A stretch of 64,000 bases of DNA from a virus, in the UHGV virus genome UHGV-0109738; one strand, 5' to 3'. The notes beneath the pieces were generated by a model, which had not been told where the DNA came from, did not search any database, and saw nothing but the letters and a program-made list of their open reading frames with translations. Positions 17,542 to 31,990 of the stretch are shown one piece after another. The number at the start of each line of letters is the position of its first letter. The first letter of the stretch is position 1. A program made the position numbers and the translations under genes.

Positions 17542-19337
17542 TCCACAACCTCCCCAAGCTGCGCATCTGTTAGCTCTTTATGCCAGAGACGAAAATTCCT
17601 CACATGCCCAAATAAATGGCGTAATCCTGCTGTAGTTTGTCCACCAATGCGAATGGTTGCTGTACTCCGGATATATTCCCATTTGGTTTTAGTTTCGCTG
17701 CTTAACTTACCGTTACTGACTACACATGTGGACCGTTCGGACTTTACCCGCATACCAATAAGCATTTTTTCCAGCCCGGCATTTTCATTTATTCGTCGGT
17801 CTGAACCACCTATATCACAATACGGAAAACCGTCGTACCCACCTGATGAACCAAACCCCATTACGATCCCCGCATCTGCCTGATGCCGGTATGTGTCAAA
17901 AACACGCGGCGCTGCATTTGGCGTTTTATACCAGTTCTTATGTACCTCACAAAGAACCGTAAAAGGAAGATTATAAAGATTATTCTTAATCGGAACTGTA
18001 ACCATATCGCTTGCCCGCGTTACCGGTGCCGTCCCCGTAACAATAAAAGATGATGCGCCTGTACCAGCCTCAATCTGTGGAGTGGTTACATCGAGATAAT
18101 CCCCTGATGCAACCATCTGCCCTGTATCCGGAGAATACTGGACAAAACCACCAACCGTATTTTCTGTTGTATCTGCTTTTAATGTAGCCTCAAAAAATAT
18201 CCAGCCAGTTGCATCATCCTTAACAGACCTTGCTGTAACACGGCTTGTCTGACCTGTCTTGCTAATTATGCGGGTGGTAAGGTTCAGGTTTGCTGCTCCT
18301 ATTGATGTCCTTACCTCCCCATCATAATGTTCAAATAAAATACGAACGGCGATATTATCAACTTCACTTTTTACCCGACAGGATATAGTTACATGCTTTT
18401 CGTCCCCTGAAGTATCAACCCCTCCGGCACTCGAATACAGTCCGGTAATGGTATGCGCTTTACTTGTACCAACAATCGAATCCTGTACGACAAACCGGCC
18501 ATAATTAAACCCAAAACTATCTGTGCCTGTTTCTGTAACGTCCAGTGAAGTTGACTTATTCCACTTCGAAGGGTCTGTACTGTTTATTAACAGGTTTGTG
18601 CGCGTCCCCTCAATCAGTAATCCTTCGCGTTCAAAACGTGGCTCATTAATACCAGCCACAGTTAAAACACCTGATTTGTTAATGTAAGTAGCAGTGCTTG
18701 CGCGTGAGAAAGAAACAACTTTATCTGATGATATTGTTTTTTCTTCCCCATTAATGGTTACTTTTTTAGTACCAGGGCCGTAGCCCGTGATCATATCGAG
18801 AGAATCGTTAAACGGTATCCATACGTCCGGCAGCGGTTGCAAAACATACGCGTAAGGCTGTGCGGTCTGATTGGCGTATTCGTGGGCTTCGTCTCTGTAT
18901 GTCTTAGCTGAATCGGCTGCGCTTGTCGCTGTTGTTGCAGCGTTGGTTGCAGTGGTAGCTGATTGTGATGCTAATTTTGAGGCTGAAATCACATCTTTGT
19001 TGTCGCTAAAAAATTCAACTGCGTCCGCTATTTCTGATTCTTTGCCCTGATAGTAACGCAGTGTTTCGGCGACATCCTGAGCAAGACCATCCACAGAGAT
19101 CGAATCTGAAAGCAGGATGCTAAATTTAGTTCCAGCCGGAATAGCCGGACTTGCCGCAGGAGTTACCGACAAACTTGTTGCGCTTTTTACCTTTGTGATT
19201 GAAAAAATCTGCACCGGATCGCTAATGGCAATAAGAGTGCAACCCACTCTGATCAGAGATAATGCGGCGTTGAATTCAGTCCCTGCCCCGGTAACTGTGT
19301 TTCCGCTAACAGCTATAGTGCCTGTTGTGTAAATCAT
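17538..19337 (-). CDS. Side tail fibre / receptor-binding protein
   Basis: 599 aa; conserved fibre-type N-terminus (MIYTTGTIAVSGNTVTGAGTEFN), Ala/Thr/Ser-rich shaft, distinct C-terminal domain; immediately downstream of the J-like gene. Confidence 0.7.
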   Translation of the reverse strand: MIYTTGTIAVSGNTVTGAGTEFNAALSLIRVGCTLIAISDPVQIFSITKVKSATSLSVTPAASPAIPAGTKFSILLSDSISVDGLAQDVAETLRYYQGKESEIADAVEFFSDNKDVISASKLASQSATTATNAATTATSAADSAKTYRDEAHEYANQTAQPYAYVLQPLPDVWIPFNDSLDMITGYGPGTKKVTINGEEKTISSDKVVSFSRASTATYINKSGVLTVAGINEPRFEREGLLIEGTRTNLLINSTDPSKWNKSTSLDVTETGTDSFGFNYGRFVVQDSIVGTSKAHTITGLYSSAGGVDTSGDEKHVTISCRVKSEVDNIAVRILFEHYDGEVRTSIGAANLNLTTRIISKTGQTSRVTARSVKDDATGWIFFEATLKADTTENTVGGFVQYSPDTGQMVASGDYLDVTTPQIEAGTGASSFIVTGTAPVTRASDMVTVPIKNNLYNLPFTVLCEVHKNWYKTPNAAPRVFDTYRHQADAGIVMGFGSSGGYDGFPYCDIGGSDRRINENAGLEKMLIGMRVKSERSTCVVSNGKLSSETKTKWEYIRSTATIRIGGQTTAGLRHLFGHVRNFRLWHKELTDAQLGEVVE

Positions 19338-19792: not shown

Positions 19793-19820
19793 AAAAAACG
19801 GGGCTTATGCCCCGTTTTTT
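19793..19820. terminator. Bidirectional rho-independent terminator
   Basis: aaaaaa-cggggc-ttat-gccccg-tttttt: A-run and T-run flank a perfect GC stem. Confidence 0.65.
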
Positions 19821-22800
19821 ATGCTGTCGTTGATGTTCTAAATGATCCGGTGCCTCTTGCTACTATCATTGTTGGAGAATACAACGCGGTACAATATGCG
19901 TATCCTTCAGATGATGATGTTTGAGGACAATATATTTTCCCGATAATATCTGATGCTTTTAAACCAGAAAAAGCGCATTGCACTGTTAATGTGCATCCAC
20001 CATAAGGCACGTAATATGAAATTGTTTTGTTTTTATCTCCGCAACTAAACGTTACGTTATAAGTGGATCTATATTCACCAGACATTAATGAAATAGTCGC
20101 CATAAGCATAACTGATTTCGTCAATGCATTATCCGTGCTGTCTTTATATGTGATGGTTGCGCTATAACTTCCGTTATGCCCAAGCACTCGATCTGGACCA
20201 ACCCCCATGTTAGCAACGTCACCGACAAATGACTTTGCCTCTACTGTACCTTTAAACTTCCCGCTTGTGGCCTGAATCTCACCAGTGAATTTACCAGATG
20301 TTGCGTACACCGTACCGCGTACAGTGACGTTGTTGAACTCCGCATTGCCGTTTTTATTTAGCATCCAGCCAGCCGAACCAGCTTTATAGTTGGTTGACTG
20401 AATTTGCTGCGCAATCTTCGCGGTAGTGATTGATGCGTCTCTGATCCACGCATCACGGATGTAGCAAGCACCGTTAGTAACATAGAACGGGGTCTGATAG
20501 GAGCCACCTGCCGCAGTCATAAGCACGAAACGGTCAACGAGGAAAATACACTGCGATTGAACGTTAGTCCCGCTACCAGTAAGGCCGAGCGACATTCCTG
20601 TAGCGTATTTCATACCGTTTTTATCAGTGGCAATCTTAATTGAATATGACGCATCAACGTTACCTTTGAAGTCAGTCAGTGCTTTTGATGTCGTTTCTAT
20701 CGCCGTTGTGTTTCCGTTAATAGTTACTTTCAACTGGTCGATTCTGGTTGACAATGCCTCGTCTGCCGTTGCCATAGCCTGTGACCATTCCGTGATGCTT
20801 GAGTTTACATCGTCGAAAGATGCCGAGATCTGGCCAAATTTTTCCGCGCTTGATGTTTCATGCGTAGAAAGTGCAGTTGACACTTCGGATACTTTCGAAT
20901 TAATCGTACTGGTAAGCGATGAGTTAAGGCTGCTGATTGCGTCAGTGCGTGCATTCTTCTCATCTGCGATCGCTTTATCCATCCTGGTTACGTTGCTTGT
21001 CACCTTGCTATCGAGCGTGGAAATTGACGCATTAACCCCGCTAATAGCTTCTGCGCGTGCGCTCGCCTCATCTGCGATTGCTTTATCAAGACGGGAAACG
21101 CTCGCGTCGGTCTTGCTTTCAAGACTACTGACGCTGGCGTTAACGTTGCTAATAGCTTCTGCGCGTGCGCTCGCCTCATCTGCGATTGCTGTGTCTACCC
21201 TTGCTATTTCCGCTTTTGTTTTTCTTTGTCCTTTCCTGTATTTCGCCTCAATAACAGTGCTCATCTTGCTTTGCGCCATTGAGTTATTAATAAGCGCCAG
21301 AGATGCGTTTTGCAGACCTGCTTTCGCCTGAACTATCTCGTCGCTGTTTTTATCAACCTCACTTTTAACGCTGCCAAGCGACGCGCTGATACCTGATATC
21401 GCCTGAGCGCGTGTGCTTGATTCGTCAGCGATAGCTTGATCAAGACGGCTAACACTGGCATTTGTGTTATTTTCAAGCGTTGTTAAATCAGCTTTAACCA
21501 CTGTTATTGCGTCGCTTCTTGCCTGCGTTTCATCTGATATTGCCTTATCGAGGCGCTTAACACTGGCGTCAGTTTTCTTGTCAAGCGTTGAGATACTTGC
21601 GTTCACGTCGCTGATAGCCTGAGTACGCGCACTTGTTTCGTCTGCAATTGCCCGATCAAGACGGTTTACGCTGGCGTCAGTTTTCTTGTCAAGATTGCTT
21701 ATTGAGGCATTTACACCGTTAATAGCTTCAGCGCGAGCGCTGGCCTCGTCAGCTACTGCGCGTTGCACATTAGAGATCTGACCTTTAAGGTTTGTGTCCA
21801 TCACATTCATTTCTGCCGTGATGGTTTCCAGTGATTCCGCTGTCGCTTTTTTCTCTTCAGCGATAACGTTGTCAATGCGGTCAATTTCCGCTTTCGTCTC
21901 TGTCCTGCCTTTCTTGTACTGAGCGGTAAGAGTTACGCGAGTGTTAGTCTGTGCAAGCGAGTTATTAATAAGAGCAAGTGAGGCGTTTTGCAGACTTGCT
22001 TTTGCTTGCGCTAGTTCGCTGCCAACTTTTTCGCTAGACACCTCTAGCGAGTCGATTCTCGACTCATGCTGTCCAATATCATCGGCGTTTTCCTTAACCT
22101 TTTTATAAAGATCTTCCGTTTCTTTTTTAAGTGTGTCCGTGTCAGCTTTTATTGATCCCGTTTCTATGGTTAGGTTGTCAGTTTCAGTCCTTAAATCGTC
22201 AGTTATATTGGTCAGATTATCAGTTGCAGTTTTGAGGTTGTCAGTAGCAGTTTTAAGGTCATTCGTAGCGCTTTCGATAAGATCAGTGCGGTCGCCTAGA
22301 TCTTTAATGTCACCAACCATTTCTTTAAATTGTTTGGAATTCATTACGTCTTTGGTGACGTAATCGGTAATTTCGTCAAAGTTTTCTGTTGGCTTACCTG
22401 ACGCTTCCACAAAGTCAGACACACCAAAAGCGTTACGCGTGCGCACATAAACGTAATATATGTGACCTGTATTCATGCCGCCAAACGTCCACTGATGACC
22501 ACGCCCCGTATATTGTGCTTTAGTGGTTACTGATGCCGGGTCGGTGATCTGTGTTTCACCTGAGTAATAAAACTCGTAACTGGTATCAGTGGTAAGCGTT
22601 GTTCTGCTGATCGGATACACTGTTGCCTGGAATACACCAGGAACCCAATTAACGCCAATCGGGGCTGCTGGTGCACCAATAACCAGATCAACTATACTCT
22701 CAGCGCCCTTCATGCCAGTATCATTACGACCGCGAATGCCTAATGAGTAGGTTCCTGAATCAATGCCATAAAAATCATAACTGTAATTCGTAGTTTCGTA

Positions 22801-24789
22801 GCTTTTAACCACAGCGCCGTCGGCGTTATACACGCGAATCTCAAAGGTCAGGCGACGCGTTGTCGTCTGTGTTTCCCATGTTGCGCGACATTGAACCGTT
22901 TCAGATCCAACGTTTAACACCTTCAGATTTTCAATGTTCGGCACGCGGAAGTGATTAAGCGTGTCGTTATTGATCTCGAAGATTGCGCCATTATCGACTA
23001 CGGCCTGCTTATGTGGATCATGCTGTGCGGCCTCGATGGTGTATACGCTGTTATTTTCTGTTTCTGCTACGCTGGTGATTCGACATAAAACGGGTTTTGC
23101 TGCGTTGGTTGATACAGCAAAAACAGTACCGTTACGAATCCATGCCGGGGCGGATGCAAGGGTAATTTTGTTTCCGCTAACTCCAGTGATCTGGTGTTTT
23201 TTAAACTTGCCATCGCTATCAAGCAGGCTGATCGTATCTCCAGCGGAGATATATTTGGCATCAACCTTGTCTACAGTTATTACTTTGCCATTGTTCGCAA
23301 CGATGCGACCGCCTAAGCGAGCGCCTGCGCGGTTATTGTCCAGGATTTCGATAATATCACCTGGCGTAAAGTGAATCGCGTCACGGGCCATTTTAAACGT
23401 GAATTTTGACGGCTCGCGTTTTGCTGTTTCTATCAGCCATTTGCCAGCGCGGTACGCTTGCCCGCGTGACGTGCAACCGAAAGCCTCTAGCGTGGTTTCG
23501 TTATAACCATCGCGGGCGATCAGTTCATCGTCTGCCACGTATTCTTTTGATTGCTCCCAGCCGTTTTCCGGGTCAGTCCATGACACAATCACGGCGTTGT
23601 AAGATTCTGCGCGGGCAATACTTGAACGAGTAAACGCGCCATCAACTACGTTTGCATTTGTAATGGTGGCGATTGGATCTTGTGGCGCATCAATCATCAC
23701 GGTAAGGCGCTGCCCGTCCCATAATGCAATACCACGGAACATGCCTGCAATATTATCCAGTAAGTCGCGTGCGCTAATTTGTTCCGTGATGTAAGCATTA
23801 AGCGTCATGCGAGGTTCAAAGCCGCCGTAACCATCGCTAACCAACTGATCGCAGTATTGGGAAAGCGTATATAATGCGCCATCGTCAACATCAATGTAAC
23901 CAGCGTGGCGAGCAAGTCCGAAACGTTCATTTTTAACCAGATACCGGAAAAGCCATGCAGGGTTATTGGTGTACGCTTTTTTAAATCCACCAAGCCATAA
24001 ACCGGAATACGTGCGCGTTTCAGGGTTATAGTTGTCCGGCACATCAACAATCAGTCCGCGCAGATGATAAGTGCGGGCAGGAGTATCAGTATACTGGTCA
24101 TGGTCAATTACCGCGCCAGCTACAGCGGTATGAGGGTAAGACAGGTTATCGTCGATTATCTCGCTGTAACTGCTCCACCGCGTATCATTACGAAGAAGAT
24201 CGCTTTTGCTGTCTGGCGTTACGCGACGAACGCGAATATCAAACGGCTTTTCATCCGGTGCGTTGATAACGTGAGCTTCCAGGTATTCACCACTCTGTTT
24301 ACCAGGCCCGATCGTAATGTCTTTAACCAGCGACCACGTCGATGATGATGATGGCTTAACATCAACCATTAACATGACTGACGTGTTATATTGATTGCCC
24401 TTATCATCTGACTGAACTAGAGCATCAACGCCAACATTCAATCTAACGCGGGTGACGTTTGGGTCTGAAACGGTCCTGATTATTGGCGTATCGTGAGTTA
24501 CCTTCGCATTGACAATAACAGTTGATTCAATGGCGTTAAAACCGTTAATCGGTGATTGGTCAGCTGTGCCATTGCGCCACGCTATACTTACCCCAGGGAT
24601 TGACGTATTTCCGTTGGCGTCAGTAACAGGCGTGTCATTAAGCATCACATCATTTAATGGCGCTTTCTGGTTTACCGGGCCGTATATCGGCCCCTCGCTG
24701 AGAATGTCTAAAACACGATAAAACTGTTTATGATACAGGTTATCGTTCAATAAATGTGGTGTTTTGGCTTTGCCGCCGCCGCTACTCAT
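19819..24789 (-). CDS. Host specificity protein J-like central tail fibre, extended (1656 aa)
   Basis: N-terminal ~900 aa have gpJ-like organisation; followed by tandem coiled-coil repeats (D.SV.RLDKAIADE.SAR..AIS.VNASIS.LD) and a C-terminal receptor-binding region. Confidence 0.85.
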   Translation of the reverse strand: MSSGGGKAKTPHLLNDNLYHKQFYRVLDILSEGPIYGPVNQKAPLNDVMLNDTPVTDANGNTSIPGVSIAWRNGTADQSPINGFNAIESTVIVNAKVTHDTPIIRTVSDPNVTRVRLNVGVDALVQSDDKGNQYNTSVMLMVDVKPSSSSTWSLVKDITIGPGKQSGEYLEAHVINAPDEKPFDIRVRRVTPDSKSDLLRNDTRWSSYSEIIDDNLSYPHTAVAGAVIDHDQYTDTPARTYHLRGLIVDVPDNYNPETRTYSGLWLGGFKKAYTNNPAWLFRYLVKNERFGLARHAGYIDVDDGALYTLSQYCDQLVSDGYGGFEPRMTLNAYITEQISARDLLDNIAGMFRGIALWDGQRLTVMIDAPQDPIATITNANVVDGAFTRSSIARAESYNAVIVSWTDPENGWEQSKEYVADDELIARDGYNETTLEAFGCTSRGQAYRAGKWLIETAKREPSKFTFKMARDAIHFTPGDIIEILDNNRAGARLGGRIVANNGKVITVDKVDAKYISAGDTISLLDSDGKFKKHQITGVSGNKITLASAPAWIRNGTVFAVSTNAAKPVLCRITSVAETENNSVYTIEAAQHDPHKQAVVDNGAIFEINNDTLNHFRVPNIENLKVLNVGSETVQCRATWETQTTTRRLTFEIRVYNADGAVVKSYETTNYSYDFYGIDSGTYSLGIRGRNDTGMKGAESIVDLVIGAPAAPIGVNWVPGVFQATVYPISRTTLTTDTSYEFYYSGETQITDPASVTTKAQYTGRGHQWTFGGMNTGHIYYVYVRTRNAFGVSDFVEASGKPTENFDEITDYVTKDVMNSKQFKEMVGDIKDLGDRTDLIESATNDLKTATDNLKTATDNLTNITDDLRTETDNLTIETGSIKADTDTLKKETEDLYKKVKENADDIGQHESRIDSLEVSSEKVGSELAQAKASLQNASLALINNSLAQTNTRVTLTAQYKKGRTETKAEIDRIDNVIAEEKKATAESLETITAEMNVMDTNLKGQISNVQRAVADEASARAEAINGVNASISNLDKKTDASVNRLDRAIADETSARTQAISDVNASISTLDKKTDASVKRLDKAISDETQARSDAITVVKADLTTLENNTNASVSRLDQAIADESSTRAQAISGISASLGSVKSEVDKNSDEIVQAKAGLQNASLALINNSMAQSKMSTVIEAKYRKGQRKTKAEIARVDTAIADEASARAEAISNVNASVSSLESKTDASVSRLDKAIADEASARAEAISGVNASISTLDSKVTSNVTRMDKAIADEKNARTDAISSLNSSLTSTINSKVSEVSTALSTHETSSAEKFGQISASFDDVNSSITEWSQAMATADEALSTRIDQLKVTINGNTTAIETTSKALTDFKGNVDASYSIKIATDKNGMKYATGMSLGLTGSGTNVQSQCIFLVDRFVLMTAAGGSYQTPFYVTNGACYIRDAWIRDASITTAKIAQQIQSTNYKAGSAGWMLNKNGNAEFNNVTVRGTVYATSGKFTGEIQATSGKFKGTVEAKSFVGDVANMGVGPDRVLGHNGSYSATITYKDSTDNALTKSVMLMATISLMSGEYRSTYNVTFSCGDKNKTISYYVPYGGCTLTVQCAFSGLKASDIIGKIYCPQTSSSEGYAYCTALYSPTMIVARGTGSFRTSTTA
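20930..21780. repeat. Tandem ~99-bp coding repeats inside the J-like gene
   Basis: Near-identical blocks such as gcttctgcgcgtgcgctcgcctcatctgcgattgc recur at ~99-bp spacing (e.g. around 21057 and 21156), with diverged copies up to ~21780. Confidence 0.6.
22140..22300. repeat. Short-period coding repeats inside the J-like gene
   Basis: Repeating ~21-bp units (gttgtcagt..cagtt..) encoding TDNLKTATDNLKTATDNLTNITDDLRTETDNLT. Confidence 0.5.
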
Positions 24790-24802
24790 GGTTTTTCTCC
24801 TG

Positions 24803-25333
24803 TTAACTTACAACGTCTAATGCATCTCTGTTGTTGCTTGTGTCTATGCCTAACGATCCGACGTTTGAACCTATTTTCATTTCACCCAACAGGATTGGCA
24901 CTGGTCTACCCTGGCCTACCTTGTTTTCAACGCTGGTGTAGGTGTTGTTCGTTATGGTGTTATCTTGTGCGCTTTCTGCTGACGTCTTTATCTTCAGGTT
25001 GCGAGACATAAAGATCGAGAACGCAACGCTAACCACTGAAACACCAATCAAGATCCAACCCACAACACCAATCCCCGCAATACCACCTTCAACTACTGGA
25101 GCAATAATGATGGTTGTTCCGTCAGGGTATTTACTGTTAACCGCTGCTGGCGCGGTCTTTTCGTCATAATCTTTTCCGGCAATTCGTAAGCGCAAAGGTG
25201 TATTTAAAAAAGCCTTCTTGAACTCCTGATCCTGCGCGGTCAATAGGCTAAGTCCTTGCGCTGGCGTATCAACGTTTAAACACACTTTGCCGTAATATCT
25301 TCGAAGATTGCCCGTAAATCTAAATTTGAGCAT
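24803..25333 (-). CDS. Tail assembly protein I
   Basis: 176 aa; C-terminal GQGRPVPILLGEMKIGSN motif and hydrophobic segment typical of lambda gpI. Confidence 0.75.
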   Translation of the reverse strand: MLKFRFTGNLRRYYGKVCLNVDTPAQGLSLLTAQDQEFKKAFLNTPLRLRIAGKDYDEKTAPAAVNSKYPDGTTIIIAPVVEGGIAGIGVVGWILIGVSVVSVAFSIFMSRNLKIKTSAESAQDNTITNNTYTSVENKVGQGRPVPILLGEMKIGSNVGSLGIDTSNNRDALDVVS

Positions 25334-26007
25334 TTGTCAGATCTCCATATTGAATGCGTTTGTCGAACATACGCGGGCCGCATTTGCTCGCGGCGGCTTA
25401 GCAGTCCGGCATTGTCATGATGCAAAACAGTGTTATCGCCCAGGAAAATCATCGCGTGGCATGGGTCAGCACCTTTAAACGGCTGGCGGATAATCACGTC
25501 ACCAGGCTGAATGCTTTGCGCATCAACCATGAAAAACCCGTTCAATGGCAGGTTTTTTATGTACAGGTTTTCCCCACGCAGCCACCACCCATCGTGGCGC
25601 TCAAAGTCAGGTAGATCCACGCCGCAAAGGTGATAGGCGTCACGGAAAAGCGAGTAGCAGTCTGTTTTCCCGTGCTCAAATTTACGGCCTAACAGGTGCG
25701 CTACCGGGAGAAACTTTCTCACCCTGCCACCTGAACATAAAAACCACGGCAGGCCGGAAATAACATGCTGTTGTCGATCCCGTGCCGACAATACCAGGGT
25801 ATCATCGGTGTGGGAGTGGAAAACTGCTGTTATAACGCCTAATTCGTCAGCTTTGATATAATCGTCAGGCGAGATTTTAAAGCTGTTGTGCGGCGTTTCA
25901 GACACGTTTAAGCACGGGTAAAAATAATCGTTATCTATCACCAGGCCGCAAACTTCCTCACGCGGGTGTGCTGCTGCATAGCGAATCATTTTATCTTCAA
26001 GCGCCAT
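25276..26007 (-). CDS. Tail tip protein K (MPN/JAB plus NlpC/P60 domains)
   Basis: Start at MALEDK (3 nt after the gpL stop). HSH motif (AVFHSHTDD) and Cys/His NlpC/P60-like residues. Confidence 0.75.
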   Translation of the reverse strand: MALEDKMIRYAAAHPREEVCGLVIDNDYFYPCLNVSETPHNSFKISPDDYIKADELGVITAVFHSHTDDTLVLSARDRQQHVISGLPWFLCSGGRVRKFLPVAHLLGRKFEHGKTDCYSLFRDAYHLCGVDLPDFERHDGWWLRGENLYIKNLPLNGFFMVDAQSIQPGDVIIRQPFKGADPCHAMIFLGDNTVLHHDNAGLLSRREQMRPAYVRQTHSIWRSDKCSNLDLRAIFEDITAKCV

Positions 26008-26009
26008 AA

Positions 26010-26714
26010 TCAACCCACCTTGCTTGATCCTGGGAAACATGAAATTGGTAACGGATTCGGGCGCGGAAAACGCAAACGGCAACCGCTTAGGCGGTGGCTG
26101 CATTTATCCAGCTTTGGATCGCTTGTCGATTCGTCTTTGTCAGTAGCTACAGGGCCGCCACTATATCCGCAACCGTCGCCGCGATATTGCCACTGGCAAA
26201 CGTCAGCGAGGATTGTGCGCCCAGGGATAACCGCTTTATCAGCATCAATTGGCGTTGACAGTTCATATTGCACCTGGTCCGCTGTTTCTTCGCTCATCGC
26301 TTCAACGACGTAAAAAGACACAGCCTCAATAGATGGATCTGCATCTGGATTGCCGTTGGGGAAGTTAACGGCGTCCAGGTATTTTACTTCCACCTGGCGG
26401 CGAGTAACCTTCATTCCTCGCAGGTCGTTGAAATCGTTATTCATCCCGGTGATTAGCCCGCCAATGTTGGCTACTACCATTTGGGGGCGTGAGTAAACGC
26501 CTTCGTTTTTCATTTCGAAGCCAGTTGCCTCGATCGGGTAGCTGTTGTAAGCCAAGCCCTTCCAGATAACCTGGCCGTAATAGCCATTCGCGCCGGAATG
26601 GAAGCGGATAACCTCGCCACCCAGGGGCGTAAGGTCCAGCTCAAATAAGTCAATGACCGCGCCGACTCCGGCATCGACGGAATCAATAATCATCTCTCTC
26701 GGAATATTGCGCAT
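26010..26714 (-). CDS. Minor tail protein L
   Basis: 234 aa with C-terminal cysteine cluster (CQWQYRGDGCGYSGG..CSHRLSGC) as in lambda gpL. Confidence 0.8.
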   Translation of the reverse strand: MRNIPREMIIDSVDAGVGAVIDLFELDLTPLGGEVIRFHSGANGYYGQVIWKGLAYNSYPIEATGFEMKNEGVYSRPQMVVANIGGLITGMNNDFNDLRGMKVTRRQVEVKYLDAVNFPNGNPDADPSIEAVSFYVVEAMSEETADQVQYELSTPIDADKAVIPGRTILADVCQWQYRGDGCGYSGGPVATDKDESTSDPKLDKCSHRLSGCRLRFPRPNPLPISCFPGSSKVG

Positions 26715-26805
26715 TTTCTCACCTTGTCATTTTGTGATCTGCGTCACGCTAAATCATACCAAAATGGATTGATCGAGGTTTTTACAATATGTATATTTTA
26801 CTCAA

Positions 26806-27012
26806 ATGAAGGGGAAGTTAACAAAATGGCACAAAGGGCGCGGGATGAACGATAAACTATGGAGACTGACCTTATTTGTGAGTAATGGGCGTGATATCGA
26901 GGCTGAATTCGATAACCCTAGCGACGCCTTAGAAACGTCCATTTACCTATCAGAAAAAGATGATCGCGTCCTGGGCTACCGGATTAAACCGATTAAAAGC
27001 GGGGATCAGTAA
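26806..27012 (+). CDS. Hypothetical protein (moron cassette)
   Basis: Small plus-strand ORF (likely starts at ATG 26845) between minus-strand tail genes L and M. Confidence 0.3.
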   Translation: MKGKLTKWHKGRGMNDKLWRLTLFVSNGRDIEAEFDNPSDALETSIYLSEKDDRVLGYRIKPIKSGDQ

Positions 27013-27013
27013 A

Positions 27014-27364
27014 ATGCAAAAATACCGTCTAGATGTATGGATGGCAGGCAGTAAAGATTGGGAAGGTTACGGATTATATGACAGTTACGAAATGGCAGTC
27101 GAGGAAGGAGAAAAACTTGTTCGCTTCTTCGGGCGCGCCAGGGAATTCAAAATAACTCAGGTACAAATAGATGAGAAGGTGGAAGATATGAACCCGAAAG
27201 ATATTAACTTTAACGTCAATGTTAATTTTGCTGACTCTATGGATCAGTCTTGCCCTGGTGAAATACACGCAAAGGGTTTCCCGGCTGATGATCCTGATGC
27301 AAAACGCGAATACGAAAAAGCGGCAAAAGATTTCTGTATCGACAATTTAAGTTGCTTTGATTAA
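27014..27364 (+). CDS. Hypothetical protein (moron cassette)
   Basis: Start at MQKYRL, 2 nt after the previous stop. Confidence 0.35.
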   Translation: MQKYRLDVWMAGSKDWEGYGLYDSYEMAVEEGEKLVRFFGRAREFKITQVQIDEKVEDMNPKDINFNVNVNFADSMDQSCPGEIHAKGFPADDPDAKREYEKAAKDFCIDNLSCFD

Positions 27365-27369
27365 AAATT

Positions 27370-27855
27370 ATGAAATGGTACAACATCTTTACTTATAATG
27401 AAGGGAAATTATTCTGGAAGATACCAACAAGCGGTAGAATTACCAACGGCAAGGAAGCCGGAAGTTTGCACAACGGGTATATTGTTATCTGTGTGCAAAA
27501 TAAAAAGTATAAGGCACACAACATAATTTGGGAAATGCACAACGGCCCGATCCCAGAAGGGTATGTGATTGACCATATAAACCATATAAGGAGTGATAAC
27601 AGAATATAAAATCTAAGAATGATAACAAAACAAGAAAACATGAAAAATATGCCGTTATCCAGAAGGAATAAGAGCGGGTGCATTGGCGTATGGTGGAATG
27701 AAGCGAATAAAAAATGGATTGTAAGAGTGATGATTAGTGGGGTGTATCGGCATATAGGGTGTTTTAATAGCTACCTTGATGCGTGTAACGCCTCAAAAGA
27801 AGCGCACGAAATCGGAGGGTACTATAAAGAACATGGCGCGGCGCAATCACAGTGA
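27370..27855 (+). pseudogene. HNH-AP2 homing-endonuclease-like gene interrupted by in-frame TAA
   Basis: 27370-27609 and 27619-27855 are in the same frame, separated by TAA at 27610-27612 exactly where the HNH motif DNR-E-NLR expects Glu (reads DNRI*NLR). Downstream half has an AP2-type motif (GCIGVWWNEANKKWIVRV..HIGCFNSYLDACNA). Confidence 0.6.
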
Positions 27856-28081
27856 TTATGTATACACGTTGAAACAGGCCGCCCGCCTTATCGGTTATCA
27901 TGAACACGAATTTATTGATTTGCTGATTGAGCGCGGGATACTGTACCAGGTCTGCTTAACGCTGTACCCTAAAGCGAAATACCTACAGGAAAAGTTATTT
28001 ATCATCATGACGGATGAAAACCAGGTTAATCACTCATTCGTCACTGATAAGGGATTGACATATTTGAAGGGGGCGTTATGA
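27833..28081 (+). CDS. Hypothetical protein (possible KilA-C/antirepressor-like C-terminal motif)
   Basis: Start at MARRNHSDYVY; C-terminal FVTDKGLTYL resembles KilA-C-type motifs. Confidence 0.3.
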   Translation: MARRNHSDYVYTLKQAARLIGYHEHEFIDLLIERGILYQVCLTLYPKAKYLQEKLFIIMTDENQVNHSFVTDKGLTYLKGAL

Positions 28082-28156
28082 GATGTGCGAACATTACGTT
28101 CTGGAAATGATCATTATCATTATTGGATTGTCATGCATTCTGCTATCGACACTATA

Positions 28157-28184
28157 AACCCCGCCGTGGCGGGGTGTTTTTTTT
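28157..28184 (+). terminator. Rho-independent terminator of the plus-strand moron cassette
   Basis: aaccccgcc-gtg-gcggggt followed by tttttttt. Confidence 0.6.
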
Positions 28185-28365
28185 AATCGTAGGATAGAAA
28201 TGCTACTTCTTTGCCATCCCAAGTCGTACAGCCGATATATCCATCACCCATATCATGAAGATACCACGTCTCGCCATTATCAGCCCGGACAGTAAGATCA
28301 TTAATTTCATAGTCGGCGAACAATGTAAAAGCGCCAGTGCGCTCCACTACACAAAAATAAGGCAT
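28183..28365 (-). CDS. Small hypothetical protein (60 aa)
   Basis: Short ORF just downstream of gene M on the same strand. Confidence 0.3.
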   Translation of the reverse strand: MPYFCVVERTGAFTLFADYEINDLTVRADNGETWYLHDMGDGYIGCTTWDGKEVAFLSYD

Positions 28366-28376
28366 ATCCCCTCCCT

Positions 28377-28730
28377 CTAATTAATAACTTGCTCAAATGT
28401 TGCATTTAGCGTGTATAGCGGACCGTCTTTAGTCATGCTCCAGCTACGGCAAACAAAAAGCCTTTGCACGTTATCCATCGACGGCGACCAGTAAAAAGCC
28501 TCGACAGCGCCACGCGCCCTCAAGAATGCTTCCGCCTGGATCGCTACATTCCCACCATCGCCGCATCCTGCACTACTGCCTTTAAAAACCAGGGTGTAAC
28601 TATCAAGTAATGTGTTAATCCCTTTCGCCTGGCGTTGTTCATACCCATCACCAAGTTTAATGACAGATACGTTTGGTTCCCTGGTCACGCTGTAGCTTCT
28701 TTGCGGCGTCCATCTGAACACTTCCGGCAT
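28377..28730 (-). CDS. Minor tail protein M
   Basis: 117 aa at the gpM position between tape measure and gpL; typical size. Confidence 0.7.
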   Translation of the reverse strand: MPEVFRWTPQRSYSVTREPNVSVIKLGDGYEQRQAKGINTLLDSYTLVFKGSSAGCGDGGNVAIQAEAFLRARGAVEAFYWSPSMDNVQRLFVCRSWSMTKDGPLYTLNATFEQVIN

Positions 28731-28897
28731 AAAACCCCCACAAGTTACATTTTGTATATATCTTTACGCGCTTCTACGCGAAAAATGAGATCTTTGTCAC
28801 AATGATTATAGCTAGTTTACAAAATGGCTTCACGTAGCATGCAACAAGATGTATATAGAAAGCAAGAAGAAAGCAGTACCAACGAAGGAGGCCCAAA

Positions 28898-29053
28898 ATG
28901 AAACGCTATGTAGTAGTAATGCTAAATAACGCATTCGAACAAGTGGAAATAGCAATCGTTAAGGGTTTCGACGACGCATTCAAATACGGTCAATTCATGA
29001 TGAATGCGAAAGAAGATGAATACCGGGACTTCTTCCTGAAGGCACTTAACTAA
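28898..29053 (+). CDS. Small hypothetical protein (51 aa), first gene of a three-gene plus-strand cassette
   Basis: GAAGGAGG RBS upstream of ATG 28898. Confidence 0.3.
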   Translation: MKRYVVVMLNNAFEQVEIAIVKGFDDAFKYGQFMMNAKEDEYRDFFLKALN

Positions 29054-29070
29054 GGATGATGGGGTGAGTT

Positions 29071-29325
29071 ATGAAACTGGTAGCGATTGACAAAAACCTG
29101 AAAGCACAGAAAAACGCGCCGGAACGTGTAGTTAAAAAAGCAAGGGAGCTTTTGAACGCGTTTTTAAACAAGGATGTGTCGCCCAAAAAATTAAAAGACG
29201 GTTACGGCTACGCCTTCCGCGCCAATTTAGACTGGCGAGTCTATAGCCAGGATCTGAAGGAGTGGGTGATTGTTGAACATCATAAATTTAATGAATTATC
29301 TGGCGTGCGCGGTTGCCATAAGTGA
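29071..29325 (+). CDS. Hypothetical protein (84 aa; faint RelE/ParE-like C-terminal pattern)
   Basis: C-terminus LKDGYGYAFRANLDWRVYSQDLKEWVIVEHHKF loosely resembles the RelE-type ..G.YRLRVGDYRVIY...VV.V..VGHR pattern; weak. Confidence 0.3.
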   Translation: MKLVAIDKNLKAQKNAPERVVKKARELLNAFLNKDVSPKKLKDGYGYAFRANLDWRVYSQDLKEWVIVEHHKFNELSGVRGCHK

Positions 29326-29435
29326 GTCGGGATATGAAGGACGATAAATTCACCTGGCGTGAGATCTGGAACATCTGGTTAGTGATGTCCAGTAGGAGTT
29401 ACATCGCACGTAACGGCAGACTGTAGGAGAAAAAA

Positions 29436-29618
29436 GTGATTATTGAAGAAACAAAACGTTGTTATGGTGTCCGGTTAGATCTTGAAAATGATGTATTGTG
29501 GATAACCGAACTTATGGGGACTGACACCATCGTGATTGACAAGTCGCAGGCTGTACAGCTTATTGCTGGACTACAAAAGTTTGTTGATGGTGAGTTTAAA
29601 AACGAAGAGGTAGACTAA
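29436..29618 (+). CDS. Small hypothetical protein (60 aa)
   Basis: Third ORF of the cassette; followed by hairpin ggccact-ata-agtggcc and a T-rich tract. Confidence 0.3.
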   Translation: MIIEETKRCYGVRLDLENDVLWITELMGTDTIVIDKSQAVQLIAGLQKFVDGEFKNEEVD

Positions 29619-29647
29619 GAAAAAGGCCACTATAAGTGGCCTTAGTG

Positions 29648-31990
29648 TTATTTGCGGCGCGGTTGCAACATTCCGCCCGGTCTTTGAGATTCCCTTGTTA
29701 TCATCTTCATAGCTACACGTTCCATTGTCTGTTCAAGTCTGCGGCTGTCTTCGTCGCTGAATCCGTTCGTTGTCTGAATGCTGATACTGACAGGCATACT
29801 AATACCGCCACCGCCGCCAATATCACGGCCCGGAATAACTCTGCCGTTCTCGCCAGGAATCATATATTGATTCCCGTTAGGCGTCTGGAATAGCTCCGTC
29901 CTGTTGTTTTCCCCGACACGGTACAAGTTGCCACCAATGACGCTACCACCATTAAAGCGCCTGCCACCGAAGATGGATGTTGCCAGAGACATGATCGCAG
30001 TGAGTGCCGCAGAGCCAGCCGCCGCCCAGCTACCGCCAGTTGATGCTGCTGTTGCCGCCGCTGCCGGGGCCGCTGCCGCAGCGATGCTACCCTGAGCGGC
30101 TACCGCACTTGCCGTTGTGCTGGCCTGCGTTGCCTTGCTTTGTGTCTCCATCATGATTTGATCTGCTATCCAGTTGGCGGCTATGTCAGAAAGCCTGTTG
30201 CCGATGTTCCCTAGTATATTGCTCCCTAAGTTAGCAAAAACATCGCTCAATGATTGAGTGCCGTTAAGCAGGCCAACAAGCGCATTGCTCATGCCACCTT
30301 TAAGGCCATTAACGCAATCACCGATAAGGCCGTTAGTGTCGCTTTGCGCCTGCCACTGCTCCCATTTCAGATCGCGGATCTGCTGCTCATAGGCTAACAA
30401 TTCCTGTTTCTGTTGTGCTTCTGTAGCGCCCAGGTCGATAAGCATTTGCTTACGGACGGCCCATTCATTTTGTGCCTGCTGGATGGGGTCAACCTCGCCT
30501 TTTAGCTGGTCCATCGGGCTAACTATTTGCGACCATTTATCACGCAGTTCATCTACCGGGATCTGCGCTAATTCTTCTTTCAGTTCCTTGCCGATCCCTT
30601 TTTGCGCGGCGCGGTACTCAAGGAGCGTGATTTTACCCTGGGCAAATGCAGCATCAATGGCCTTGCCGTTCTCCAACGCTTTGCGCATGGCGGCGGCGTC
30701 TTTGTTGTACTGATCAGAAACGCTTATACCTTTGTCACCAAGCCGATCAGCTTCCGATTTCTTCTCTTTTTTCTGTTTTTTCGGCTTGTCTACTGGCTTG
30801 TCGAATCCGGTAATCGCTCCGTCATTGGCAGCATTCTGTTCATTTTTCCTTGCTTCTTCTGTAGCCTGGATTGCTGCGGTCAGATCATCCTGTAGTTGCA
30901 TGACCTTGCCAACGGTCTTCCCGTATTTCTTCTCGTAGTTGCTGTTATATTCGTCGGTTTGCTCTCCTACTACCTCCTTCACCCATTTATAGCCATCCAT
31001 TAGCGCCTTGATTGGCGTCACCATTGCGATGATCTTCTCTGCCACCTCTCCAGCCTTAACAGCCACATCATCAAACATGTCGATAAATTCGCTACCAGCC
31101 GTTTTGAGTGTGTCGAAGCAGGTTTTAGCGAATTTAGCGCCATCGCCAAGCCCTTTAACGCCTTTCGTGATCAAGTCGATAGCTGAAACAACGCCATCTG
31201 ACACGCCAAAAAGATCATCCAACTGCTCAACAAGGCCCATAATTTCTACTTTAAGCTCATTGATAGCCATGCCGGATGTGCGCGGCAACTGAGCAAACTT
31301 ATCGTTTGTTTCCTGCGTAGCCGCCTGTATTGCGTTAACCATCCTTTCAGCCGTGATCTTGCCGTCCAGCATTTCGGCGCGGAACTGGCCCATTGATAAT
31401 CCCATATGGCGGGCCATTGTTTGTACGATGGTCGGCGTGTTTTCAAGCAGGCTGTTAAATTCTTCGGCACGAAGAACACCGCCGTCGATAGACTGACGGA
31501 ATTGACGCATTGAGTTAGACATCTGTTCCGCTGACGCGCCGCCTAATGCACCCATTTTCTGAATAGTGCCAACCAGGTTAAGCAATTGCCCTTCCGTAGC
31601 GGAGGTGTTTTTTAGTGAGATAGCCAGGCCTTGCCATAATTCGCCAGTATCTTTCAGGCTCTGCCCCGTCTCCCTGGATATTTCTTTCAGACCATCAAAA
31701 ACCCGCCCGGCAGATTCCGCGTCGCCTGTAAGCATTTTGATTTTGACGCGTAGCATTTTGGCCTGCTCTGCCATTTCCATAAACTGTCTAACGGCCTCGG
31801 CAGCAATTAGCAGATGGATAACCCTGGTCAGTGCTTTGATTGATGTTTTCAGTGTGTTTACCTGGCGATCGGCCTGTTTAGCACCGCGCTCTATACGGTC
31901 AAAGGCCTGGTCTGCCTGTCGTTGTGCTACAAGAAGTTGTCCTGTTTTTGCGTCAACTTCGTAATAAATTGTGCCTACACTGGTAGCCAT
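29648..31990 (-). CDS. Tail tape measure protein
   Basis: 780 aa, highly helical with Ala/Gly-rich segments; located between tail chaperone and gpM homologues. Confidence 0.85.
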   Translation of the reverse strand: MATSVGTIYYEVDAKTGQLLVAQRQADQAFDRIERGAKQADRQVNTLKTSIKALTRVIHLLIAAEAVRQFMEMAEQAKMLRVKIKMLTGDAESAGRVFDGLKEISRETGQSLKDTGELWQGLAISLKNTSATEGQLLNLVGTIQKMGALGGASAEQMSNSMRQFRQSIDGGVLRAEEFNSLLENTPTIVQTMARHMGLSMGQFRAEMLDGKITAERMVNAIQAATQETNDKFAQLPRTSGMAINELKVEIMGLVEQLDDLFGVSDGVVSAIDLITKGVKGLGDGAKFAKTCFDTLKTAGSEFIDMFDDVAVKAGEVAEKIIAMVTPIKALMDGYKWVKEVVGEQTDEYNSNYEKKYGKTVGKVMQLQDDLTAAIQATEEARKNEQNAANDGAITGFDKPVDKPKKQKKEKKSEADRLGDKGISVSDQYNKDAAAMRKALENGKAIDAAFAQGKITLLEYRAAQKGIGKELKEELAQIPVDELRDKWSQIVSPMDQLKGEVDPIQQAQNEWAVRKQMLIDLGATEAQQKQELLAYEQQIRDLKWEQWQAQSDTNGLIGDCVNGLKGGMSNALVGLLNGTQSLSDVFANLGSNILGNIGNRLSDIAANWIADQIMMETQSKATQASTTASAVAAQGSIAAAAAPAAAATAASTGGSWAAAGSAALTAIMSLATSIFGGRRFNGGSVIGGNLYRVGENNRTELFQTPNGNQYMIPGENGRVIPGRDIGGGGGISMPVSISIQTTNGFSDEDSRRLEQTMERVAMKMITRESQRPGGMLQPRRK

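What the first reader, a model, noticed from the sequence alone, without database searches (positions are those of the whole stretch)
26800..28190. Plus-strand moron cassette inside the tail operon, including an HNH-AP2 endonuclease broken by a single in-frame TAA
Between minus-strand tail genes L and M lies a four-gene plus-strand cassette with its own terminator. One member is an HNH homing endonuclease fused to an AP2 DNA-binding domain in which the conserved Glu codon of the DNR-E-NLR motif is replaced by TAA (27610-27612): either a recently inactivated homing endonuclease or a read-through-dependent gene.
Basis: partly seen in the sequence, partly recalled or inferred. Interest (0 to 1): 0.45.

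Follow-up and report, generated by a model that had tools for sequence, protein, structure and literature searches.

The report
Recently broken HNH-AP2 homing endonuclease gene
A selfish "homing endonuclease" gene sitting in the tail region of an E. coli prophage has been switched off by a single G-to-T change that creates a stop codon; this is the ordinary decay such genes undergo, not an unusual way of decoding.

Summary
A plus-strand cassette lies between minus-strand tail genes L and M: g1, g2, an HNH-AP2 gene and a KilAC-domain gene, followed by a terminator.

The window is an E. coli chromosome carrying an mEp021-like (mEpimmI group) prophage. Public assemblies settle the interpretation.
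- An intact 161-aa allele sits in the same slot on at least 24 contigs. Its DNA differs from the window gene by one base, G at 27607 (GAA, Glu80).
- Two of those contigs share the window's left arm at 99-100% identity.
- The TAA allele occurs in at least 9 independent assemblies, all one phage clone, so it is not a sequencing error.
- All other homologues are single uninterrupted ORFs of about 160 aa. dN/dS between diverged alleles is 0.11.
- The window has no tRNA gene.

The truncated product loses the second strand and helix of the catalytic finger (invariant Asn90) and the whole AP2 domain.

The gene plus about 25-170 nt of flank is nearly identical across at least four backgrounds whose flanks are 57-95% identical. 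It is absent from other relatives. This fits a recently mobile homing endonuclease gene now decaying in one lineage. It is an ordinary member of a known kind, of low interest.

The parts
26010..26714 (-). Minor tail protein L gene (234 aa), left neighbour of the cassette
   Evidence: ORF. The identical protein on L013/L014 carries PF05100 Phage_tail_L. Relatives annotate it as 'phage minor tail protein L'.
26845..27012 (+). Cassette gene g1 (55 aa; alternative start 26806 gives 68 aa), function unknown
   Evidence: ORF. phrog_29559, unknown function, E = 5e-11. The orthologue in E. coli MLI107 is annotated as 'transporter', 55 aa.
27016..27364 (+). Cassette gene g2 (116 aa), function unknown. 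Its last ~25-90 nt belong to the near-identity tract that travels with the HNH gene.
   Evidence: ORF. phrog_38567, E = 9e-48. Difference positions.
27370..27855 (+). HNH-AP2 free-standing homing endonuclease gene, here a pseudogene (161 codons with one in-frame TAA at codon 80)
   Evidence: Translation. HNH_3 E = 9.9e-24. phrog_99 HNH endonuclease E = 1e-59. Intact alleles P0001/P0043 sit at the same slot. Profile and fold matches to I-HmuI and AP2 domains.
27607..27609 (+). Ochre stop TAA replacing GAA (Glu80) of the DNRIENLR motif. G to T at 27607 is the only difference from the P0043-type intact gene.
   Evidence: Glu in 29 of 33 homologues.
27370..27609 (+). Translated remnant (79 aa). 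It keeps Asp68-His69 and Asn77 but lacks the second strand and helix of the beta-beta-alpha-metal finger (invariant Asn90) and the AP2 domain.
   Evidence: This exact product is in NCBI as WP_350200066.1.
27619..27855 (+). Downstream remnant ORF (78 aa from an ATG 9 nt after the TAA) holding the AP2-type domain. No evidence that it is expressed.
   Evidence: ORF. The exact sequence is not in the protein collection and was not called as a gene on any TAA contig.
27275..27954 (.). Island of near-identity (HNH gene plus short flanks) shared with contigs whose surrounding sequence is only 57-95% identical. Looks like a co-conversion tract.
27833..28081 (+). KilAC-domain (antirepressor C-terminal domain) gene, 82 aa. 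Its first 23 nt overlap the end of the HNH frame. Its Shine-Dalgarno GGAGGG (27814-27819) lies inside the HNH gene.
   Evidence: PF03374 ANT E = 7e-7. phrog_5689. Sequence. Annotated as a KilAC-domain or putative antirepressor protein in most annotated relatives.
28158..28183 (+). Intrinsic-terminator-like hairpin (7 bp, 6 G-C) plus T8 that closes the cassette
   Evidence: mEp021 is annotated with a terminator at the equivalent place.
28183..28365 (-). 60-aa minus-strand ORF between the cassette and M (unknown function)
   Evidence: phrog_3249 E = 2e-16. Present in relatives.
28377..28730 (-). Minor tail protein M gene (117 aa), right neighbour
   Evidence: PF05939 Phage_min_tail on identical contigs.

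Best explanation
The ORF at 27370-27855 is a free-standing homing endonuclease gene of the HNH-AP2 class. It has an N-terminal I-HmuI-like HNH_3 nuclease and a C-terminal AP2-type DNA-binding domain. It sits in the short intergenic slot between g2 and the KilAC gene, within the opposite-strand accessory cassette of the tail module of an mEp021-like (mEpimmI group) E. coli prophage.

Inferred mechanism for the intact form: the enzyme cuts HEG-less phage genomes near this slot during co-infection. Repair from the HEG-carrying genome then copies the gene together with about 25-170 nt of flank.

In the window's phage clone, one G-to-T transversion at 27607 turned Glu80 (GAA) into an ochre stop. 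The 79-aa product lacks the metal-binding half of the catalytic finger and all of the DNA-binding domain. The gene is therefore dead in this lineage. This is the degeneration stage of the usual homing-endonuclease life cycle, and it happened very recently: no second lesion is present, and the clone is otherwise identical to intact relatives in the left arm.

Shown: the lesion, its reality, the intact ancestor, the presence/absence polymorphism and the identity island.

Inferred: nuclease activity, the homing mechanism and loss of function.
For: 1. Lesion. There is a single in-frame TAA.

2. Intact ancestor. Alleles P0043 and P0001 are at the same slot. P0043-type DNA (L025-L033) differs from the window gene only at 27607; L031 has one further change. 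P0001-type DNA differs at 27607 and 27838.

3. Same background. L025 and L026 are 99.9-100% identical to the window in J, I, K and L, and 99-99.7% in g1 and g2, yet carry GAA.

4. Not an error. The TAA allele is in at least 9 independent assemblies from NCBI, JGI, ENA and Logan. All are ~100% identical to the window over more than 12 kb.

5. Family. HNH_3 E = 9.9e-24. The profile hits I-HmuI 1u3e at E = 3.5e-10 and AP2 domains of WRI1 and TEM1. AP2 Pfam hits occur in 21 of 33 homologues. The AlphaFold model has pLDDT 93.8, and Foldseek's top hits are I-HmuI and AP2 domains.

6. The stop removes essential parts. D68, H69, N77 and N90 are invariant in 33 homologues, and N90 and the AP2 domain lie after codon 80.

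7. The full-length ORF is selected. dN/dS = 0.11 between alleles 12% apart at the DNA level. All 41 other homologues are single ORFs.

8. Mobility signature.
- The gene is absent from E. coli MLI107 and phage MagusPhagus, where g2 and KilAC abut.
- The slot holds a different small gene in FAH and mEp021.
- The gene plus short flanks (27275 or 27344 to 27954) is at least 99.6% identical in at least 4 backgrounds whose neighbouring sequence is 57-95% identical.
- Its G+C is 34-38%, against 48-53% for the tail genes.

9. Precedent. HNH-AP2 homing endonuclease genes, and a split and inactivated one, are described in PMC10448857, which cites Magnani et al. 2004.
Against: No biochemical evidence exists for this protein family member: cleavage, target site and homing are all inferred.

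The identity island could arise from ordinary mosaic recombination around a hitch-hiking gene rather than from endonuclease-driven conversion.

The TAA clone is widespread (at least 9 samples) and has accumulated no further lesion. That fits recency, but also fits a truncated allele that is tolerated or even favoured, for example by relieving nuclease toxicity in the lysogen.

The exact-sequence look-ups used to count alleles are biased towards the sequences asked for, so allele frequencies are only rough.
Confidence: 0.9

Rival explanations
1. The TAA is a sequencing or assembly error, and the real sequence is GAA.
For: It is a single-base difference from a common intact allele.
Against: The same T is present in at least 9 independently generated assemblies from different projects and pipelines. 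These include an NCBI E. coli assembly, a 54,309-bp JGI/IMG-VR viral contig, ENA contigs and Logan contigs. NCBI also holds the 79-aa product under three accessions.
Confidence: 0.01
2. The gene depends on stop-codon read-through or suppression. A full-length endonuclease is made at a low, regulated level by decoding UAA.
For: The frame stays open on both sides of a single stop, with no second lesion. A toxic nuclease could plausibly benefit from very low expression (inference).
Against: - The stop is confined to one clone.
- The ancestor and all 41 other homologues have a sense codon there, Glu in 29 of 33.
- No tRNA gene of any kind is in the 64-kb window.
- No Rfam element or recoding signal was found nearby.
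- UAA is read by both release factors and is generally the least leaky stop in E. coli (established knowledge).
Confidence: 0.03
3. The split is functional. After termination at 27607-27609, ribosomes re-initiate at ATG 27619 and make a stand-alone 78-aa AP2 DNA-binding protein. This could be a regulator, or a protector of the homing site. The 79-aa N-terminal piece might also have a role.
For: - An ATG lies 9 nt after the stop in the same frame.
- The downstream ORF contains the complete AP2-type fold, residues 107-149 of the model.
- The clone is widespread with no further decay.
- Domestication of HEG DNA-binding domains has precedent, for example CapR and plant AP2 factors (PMC10448857).
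Against: - No recognisable Shine-Dalgarno precedes 27619; only AAGA is adjacent.
- No gene caller called the ORF on any contig, and the exact 78-aa sequence is absent from a 15-billion-protein collection.
- No diverged homologue has such a split, so nothing shows selection for it.
- Lack of further decay is expected anyway, given near-zero divergence within the clone.
Confidence: 0.06

Closest known systems
HNH-AP2 homing endonucleases (Magnani, Sjolander & Hake 2004, as cited in PMC10448857; 'IPA-HNH' HEGs of ICP1-like phages in PMC10448857)
   Same: N-terminal HNH nuclease plus C-terminal AP2 DNA-binding domain in a small (~160 aa) free-standing phage gene. Presence/absence polymorphism between related phages. 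It sits at a boundary of sequence exchange. An inactivated, split copy has precedent in ICP1 gp115-gp116.
   Different: The HNH part here is a canonical Pfam HNH_3 (E = 1e-23), unlike the divergent ICP1 domains, which PMC10448857 describes as too divergent for the HNH-3 Pfam profile. The host is a temperate mEp021-like coliphage, and the site is an accessory cassette in the tail module. Inactivation is by a nonsense codon, not a frameshift. No member this close has been characterised biochemically.
I-HmuI (Bacillus phage SPO1 HNH homing endonuclease, PDB 1U3E)
   Same: It is the best solved relative by sequence profile (E = 3.5e-10 over the N-terminal sheet and HNH motif) and by fold (Foldseek top hit, probability 1.0). 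It has the same N-terminal beta-sheet and beta-beta-alpha-metal arrangement.
   Different: I-HmuI is intron-encoded and a nickase, with a helix-turn-helix C-terminal domain (recalled, not tested here). The protein here is free-standing and intergenic with an AP2-type C-terminal domain. Sequence identity is only about 19%.
Opposite-strand accessory cassettes of mEpimmI phages (mEp021 genes 71-74; PMC11893012)
   Same: Same position (between L and M), same orientation, same terminator, and orthologous g2 and KilAC genes.
   Different: mEp021 has an unrelated 75-aa gene (mEp021_72) in the slot where the window has the HNH gene, and it carries an HNH gene elsewhere, next to tail assembly gene I. 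A term search of the paper's main text found no occurrence of 'HNH' or 'moron' and only one passing mention of a KilAC-like antirepressor.
Phage morons (term from the lambdoid-phage literature; recalled, not looked up here)
   Same: Extra genes between conserved structural genes, with their own terminator and lower G+C (41-44% against ~50%).
   Different: The cassette is on the opposite strand and is conserved across the whole phage group. A promoter is not demonstrated. Only the HNH gene is a recent insertion, and it is a selfish element rather than a host-benefit gene.

Membership tests
HNH_3 / His-Me finger homing endonuclease (I-HmuI-like) | Beta-beta-alpha-metal motif with catalytic His, structural Asn and metal-ligand Asn in one polypeptide | tested here: not met
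   The reconstructed ORF has the motif: HNH_3 E = 9.9e-24, and H69, N77 and N90 are invariant. The product actually encoded stops at residue 79, so it lacks strand 82-86, helix 87-92 and N90. The gene is a member by descent, but the encoded protein is not a complete HNH domain.
HNH_3 / His-Me finger homing endonuclease (I-HmuI-like) | Homology to characterised homing endonucleases | tested here: met
   The family profile hits 1u3e I-HmuI at E = 3.5e-10. Foldseek's top hit is 1u3e at probability 1.0. phrog_99 'HNH endonuclease' E = 1e-59.
HNH_3 / His-Me finger homing endonuclease (I-HmuI-like) | Site-specific DNA cleavage of the HEG-less allele | not testable with these tools
   This needs purified intact protein (P0043) and HEG-less junction DNA.
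Homing endonuclease gene (mobile selfish element) | Presence/absence polymorphism at one precise site among related genomes | tested here: met
   The gene is absent from MLI107 and MagusPhagus, where g2 and KilAC are adjacent, and the slot holds another gene in FAH and mEp021. It is present at the identical site on more than 40 contigs.
Homing endonuclease gene (mobile selfish element) | Near-identical copies with short co-converted flanks in otherwise divergent backgrounds | tested here: met
   Identity is at least 99.6% over 27275 or 27344 to 27954, against 57-95% outside that tract, in the L004, L006, L030 and L031 types of background. Ordinary mosaic recombination is not excluded.
HNH-AP2 HEG class | C-terminal AP2-type DNA-binding domain (three-stranded sheet packed on one helix) | tested here: met
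   21 of 33 homologues hit PF00847, best E = 8e-8. The profile hits WRI1 at 3.1e-7 and TEM1 at 3.3e-4. The model has strands 107-110, 115-122 and 125-132 plus helix 135-149. It matches 1gcc (TM 0.63 on the target, rmsd 2.0) and 7et5 (rmsd 1.5). The window sequence alone does not reach the Pfam threshold.
Programmed stop-codon read-through / recoding | The stop is conserved at the same position in diverged homologues | tested here: not met
   The stop is present only in one clone. 33 of 33 aligned homologues and all near-identical intact copies have a sense codon there.
Programmed stop-codon read-through / recoding | A cognate suppressor tRNA or recoding RNA signal | tested here: not met
   No tRNA in the 64-kb window. 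No Rfam match above threshold in 26500-29800. The rest of the host genome could not be examined.
Moron | Own terminator | tested here: met
   Hairpin plus T8 at 28158-28183. A terminator is annotated at the equivalent place in mEp021.
Moron | Own promoter and expression independent of the surrounding operon | tested here: inconclusive
   One 9/12 sigma-70-like site lies at 26769-26797, but such sites are no more frequent than in shuffled sequence (10 found against 7.6 +/- 3.0). Expression cannot be tested here.
Moron | Absent from closely related phages (recent add-on) | tested here: not met
   The cassette (g1/g2/KilAC) is present in mEp021, MagusPhagus and the two annotated E. coli prophages inspected, and its flanks match in the other mEp phages and 35 E. 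coli genomes. Only the HNH gene is variably present.

The most novel reading that the evidence does not exclude
The nonsense allele may not be simple decay but an early step in domestication. Ribosomes terminating at 27607-27609 would re-initiate at ATG 27619 and produce a nuclease-free 78-aa AP2 DNA-binding protein. That protein would occupy the element's own recognition sequence. One candidate is the G+C-rich decamer GCCGCCCGCC at 27878-27887, which is unique in the window and lies in the conserved 5' part of the KilAC gene. The protein could then modulate KilAC expression, or shield the prophage from cleavage by intact copies on superinfecting relatives. This would be a small-scale parallel to the proposed origin of AP2 transcription factors from HNH-AP2 endonucleases.
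Probability: 0.05. Interest if true: 0.6.

Novelty: new member of a known kind. Interest (0 to 1): 0.15.

Why it matters
It matters little beyond annotation. The two ORFs at 27370-27609 and 27619-27855 should be annotated as one pseudogene of an HNH-AP2 homing endonuclease, not as a recoded gene.

The locus is nevertheless a tidy natural series for anyone studying homing endonuclease dynamics in temperate coliphages. In one phage group and at one site it offers:
- empty sites;
- a slot filled by other genes;
- intact copies in several backgrounds, with short co-conversion-like tracts;
- a one-step nonsense derivative that has spread to many samples;
- a possible independent frameshift derivative.

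The intact allele (P0043) would be an easy candidate for defining the target of an AP2-guided HNH nuclease.

Tried and rejected
- **Suppressor tRNA.** ARAGORN found no tRNA or tmRNA in the window.
- **RNA elements.** An Rfam scan of 26500-29800 at E <= 1 gave only sub-threshold chance hits to snoRNA and sRNA models. There is no group I/II intron or recoding element, so the gene is free-standing rather than intron-borne.
- **Close DNA copies in curated collections.** No copy of the HNH gene above ~76% identity was found in 5,426 complete RefSeq E. coli genomes or 50,697 phage records. Only the flanks matched.
- **Pattern scan of GTDB species representatives.** No match.
- **Paralogues in the window.** tblastn found only this one HNH_3 copy.
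- **Terminase-associated HNH, as in HK97-like packaging.** Rejected. The gene is far from the terminase genes, is absent from viable relatives such as MagusPhagus and mEp021, and has the HNH_3-AP2 architecture.
- **The GCCGCCCGCC box as target.** It is unique in the window, but it was chosen post hoc and 9 of 100 shuffles also give at least one match. It is kept only as a lead.
- **mEpimmI paper.** The main text contains no occurrence of 'HNH' or 'moron', so it does not appear to discuss this element.
Full report
**What is there.**

The window starts in E. coli chromosome. Bases 1-7000 are 100% identical to several complete E. coli genomes, across the tcpC region. It then runs into a prophage of the mEp021-like 'mEpimmI' group. 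The far end is 92-93% identical to prophages in 35 complete E. coli genomes. The cassette flanks match phages mEp021, mEp013, mEp515 and MagusPhagus.

The tail genes J, I, K and L (19819-26714) and M and H (28377-31990) are on the minus strand. L and M are confirmed by PF05100 and PF05939 on contigs 100% identical to the window.

Between L and M lie these plus-strand ORFs:
- g1 (26845-27012)
- g2 (27016-27364)
- the HNH frame (27370-27855)
- a KilAC-domain gene (27833-28081; PF03374, E = 7e-7)

They are closed by a hairpin plus T8 at 28158-28183. A 60-aa minus-strand ORF (28183-28365) separates the terminator from M.

g1, g2, the KilAC gene and the 60-aa ORF all belong to PHROG families of unknown function. 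G+C is 41-44% in the cassette and 34-38% in the HNH gene, against 48-53% in the tail genes.

**The stop codon.**

Translation of 27370-27858 gives 79 residues, one stop, then 81 more residues in the same frame.

With the stop read as Glu, the protein hits Pfam HNH_3 at E = 9.9e-24 and phrog_99 'HNH endonuclease' at 1e-59.

In an alignment of 33 homologues, D68, H69, N77 and N90 are invariant. Position 80 is Glu in 29.

An AlphaFold model of the intact allele (pLDDT 93.8) has these elements:
- the catalytic His on strand 65-69
- the second strand at 82-86
- the metal-ligand helix at 87-92
- a three-strand-plus-helix domain at 107-149

Foldseek's best solved matches are I-HmuI (1u3e) and AP2 domains (7et5, 1gcc, 3igm). 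A sequence profile of the family finds the same structures: 1u3e at E = 3.5e-10, WRI1 at 3.1e-7 and TEM1 at 3.3e-4. 21 of 33 homologues hit Pfam AP2.

So 'HNH-AP2' is correct at family level, although the window sequence alone does not reach the AP2 threshold. The stop cuts the catalytic finger in half and removes the whole DNA-binding domain.

**Is the stop real, and how old is it?**

A database search found a 161-aa E. coli protein 99% identical to the reconstructed ORF (P0001). All other homologues are 49% identical or less, and most are single ORFs of about 145-245 aa.

- P0001 is encoded at exactly the same slot, between g2 and the KilAC gene and between L and M, on 13 contigs. Its DNA differs from the window gene at two positions: G at 27607 and T at 27838.
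- An exact look-up of the hypothetical ancestor (Glu80 with the window's Ala157) found it as P0043. It is recorded on 29 contigs in the cluster table and in 43 index blocks, including a complete chromosome.
- All nine retrieved loci (L025-L033) differ from the window gene only by G at 27607. L031 has one further change.
- L025 and L026 share the window's left arm: J, I, K and L at 99.9-100%, g1 and g2 at 99-99.7%. The intact allele therefore exists on essentially the same phage background.

The exact 79-aa product is found on 10 contigs from independent NCBI, JGI, ENA and Logan samples. Two pattern scans with N at the variable base recovered only T alleles: an IMG/VR viral contig of 54,309 bp and an ENA contig. 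All of these are ~100% identical to the window over every segment compared.

The TAA is therefore real. It is inherited within one phage clone that has spread to many samples, and it is one mutational step from a common intact allele.

No tRNA gene is present in the window. No RNA family match was found nearby.

dN/dS between two alleles that differ at 57 of 483 nt is 0.11. The full-length single ORF has thus been under purifying selection.

**Evidence that the gene is, or very recently was, mobile.**

- In E. coli MLI107 and phage MagusPhagus, g2 and the KilAC gene are adjacent.
- The alignment shows a clean insertion of about 465 nt. It starts 5 nt after the g2 stop and runs into the KilAC start. 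A replacement Shine-Dalgarno for KilAC lies inside the insert.
- In E. coli FAH and in mEp021, an unrelated ~75-aa gene fills the same slot.
- Across at least four backgrounds (the L004, L006, L030 and L031 types), the g1/g2 5' region is 57-70% identical to the window and the L gene 87-89%.
- In those same backgrounds, the HNH gene with about 25-95 nt of left flank and about 120 nt of right flank is at least 99.6% identical.

This looks like a homing endonuclease gene with co-conversion tracts. It also matches the published observation that nuclease genes sit at boundaries of genetic exchange between phages (PMC10448857). Ordinary mosaic recombination cannot be formally excluded.

**Interpretation.**

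The best explanation (confidence 0.9) is a free-standing HNH-AP2 homing endonuclease gene recently inactivated by a nonsense mutation in one prophage clone.

- Read-through (0.03) has no support.
- A functional split with re-initiation at ATG 27619, making a stand-alone AP2 protein (0.06), is not excluded, but nothing speaks for it.
- A sequencing error is excluded.

The 'moron' label is only loosely apt. The opposite-strand cassette and its terminator are conserved throughout the phage group, a promoter is not shown, and only the HNH gene is a variable add-on.

**Comparison with known systems, and novelty.**

HNH-AP2 homing endonucleases are an established class (Magnani et al. 2004, as cited in PMC10448857). 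A split, inactivated example, ICP1 gp115-gp116, has been described. Decay of homing endonuclease genes after they have spread is generally regarded as part of their normal life cycle (my own knowledge, not looked up here).

Both the intact protein and the 79-aa fragment are already in NCBI, annotated as HNH endonucleases. A term search of the mEpimmI paper's main text found no mention of 'HNH'.

This is a new, uncharacterised member of a known kind. Interest is low (0.15).

Noticed in passing
window 28898-29618 (+), between M and H: There is a second opposite-strand cassette of three small ORFs (51, 84 and 60 aa) between tail genes M and H, closed by a hairpin at 29623-29643. The 84-aa protein (29071-29325) hits the Pfam ParE_like toxin domain (E = 3e-8). 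The 51-aa ORF directly upstream could be its partner. The cassette is conserved in relatives with variable content.
   Followed up: partly
L006 7209-7754; L023 (mEp021) 4619-5095 and 1-122: The tail-module cassettes of this phage group collect other nuclease-like or variable genes. L006 has a 181-aa T5orf172/CapR/DUF723-type gene in the M-H cassette. mEp021 has a zinc-ribbon gene there and a separate 'putative HNH endonuclease' (mEp021_78) next to tail assembly gene I. The distant DNA search matched five places in E. coli E21845/O/A, the best under an annotated HNH gene.
   Followed up: no
L024 4001-4485 (Logan ERR12340293 contig, 59,751 bp): A more divergent allele of the same HNH gene (87.7% nt identity) sits at the same slot. 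It is split into 117-aa and 41-aa ORFs by a 1-nt deletion in an A5 run. This may be an independent inactivation, but it rests on one assembly and sits in a homopolymer, so it may be a sequencing error.
   Followed up: partly
L002 3180-3413 (E. coli FAH); L023 2717-2944 (mEp021_72): The g2-KilAC intergenic slot is a variable site. In some relatives it holds an unrelated ~75-aa hypothetical gene instead of the HNH gene, and in others it is empty.
   Followed up: partly
L004/L025-type loci 6721-6924, equivalent to window 28082-28182: Most intact-allele contigs carry an extra 67-aa plus-strand ORF after the KilAC gene, in place of the window's terminator region (about 285 nt of extra sequence). 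The right end of the cassette is therefore also variable.
   Followed up: no
window 27878-27887: The G+C-rich decamer GCCGCCCGCC contains the GCCGCC core of plant GCC boxes bound by AP2/ERF domains. It occurs once in the 64-kb window, 45 nt into the KilAC gene, in a stretch invariant among HEG+ and HEG- relatives. It is a possible recognition element for the AP2 domain, but it was picked post hoc and 9 of 100 shuffles give at least one match.
   Followed up: partly
window 17560-18500 vs L022 (OBJQ01000540.1): A metagenome contig of the same TAA clone is identical to the window over about 12.9 kb, except for 64 of 66 differences clustered at 17.5-18.5 kb (the 599-aa ORF downstream of J, probably a tail-fibre gene). 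This looks like a localised recombination patch.
   Followed up: no
window 1-7000: The left end of the window is E. coli chromosome, 100% identical to O2:H1 strain HM670 and others. It carries tcpC (NAD+ hydrolase TcpC), a macro-domain gene and a ComEA-family gene. About 181 of 5,426 complete genomes have this segment at >= 99% identity, but none of them carries this exact prophage.
   Followed up: no
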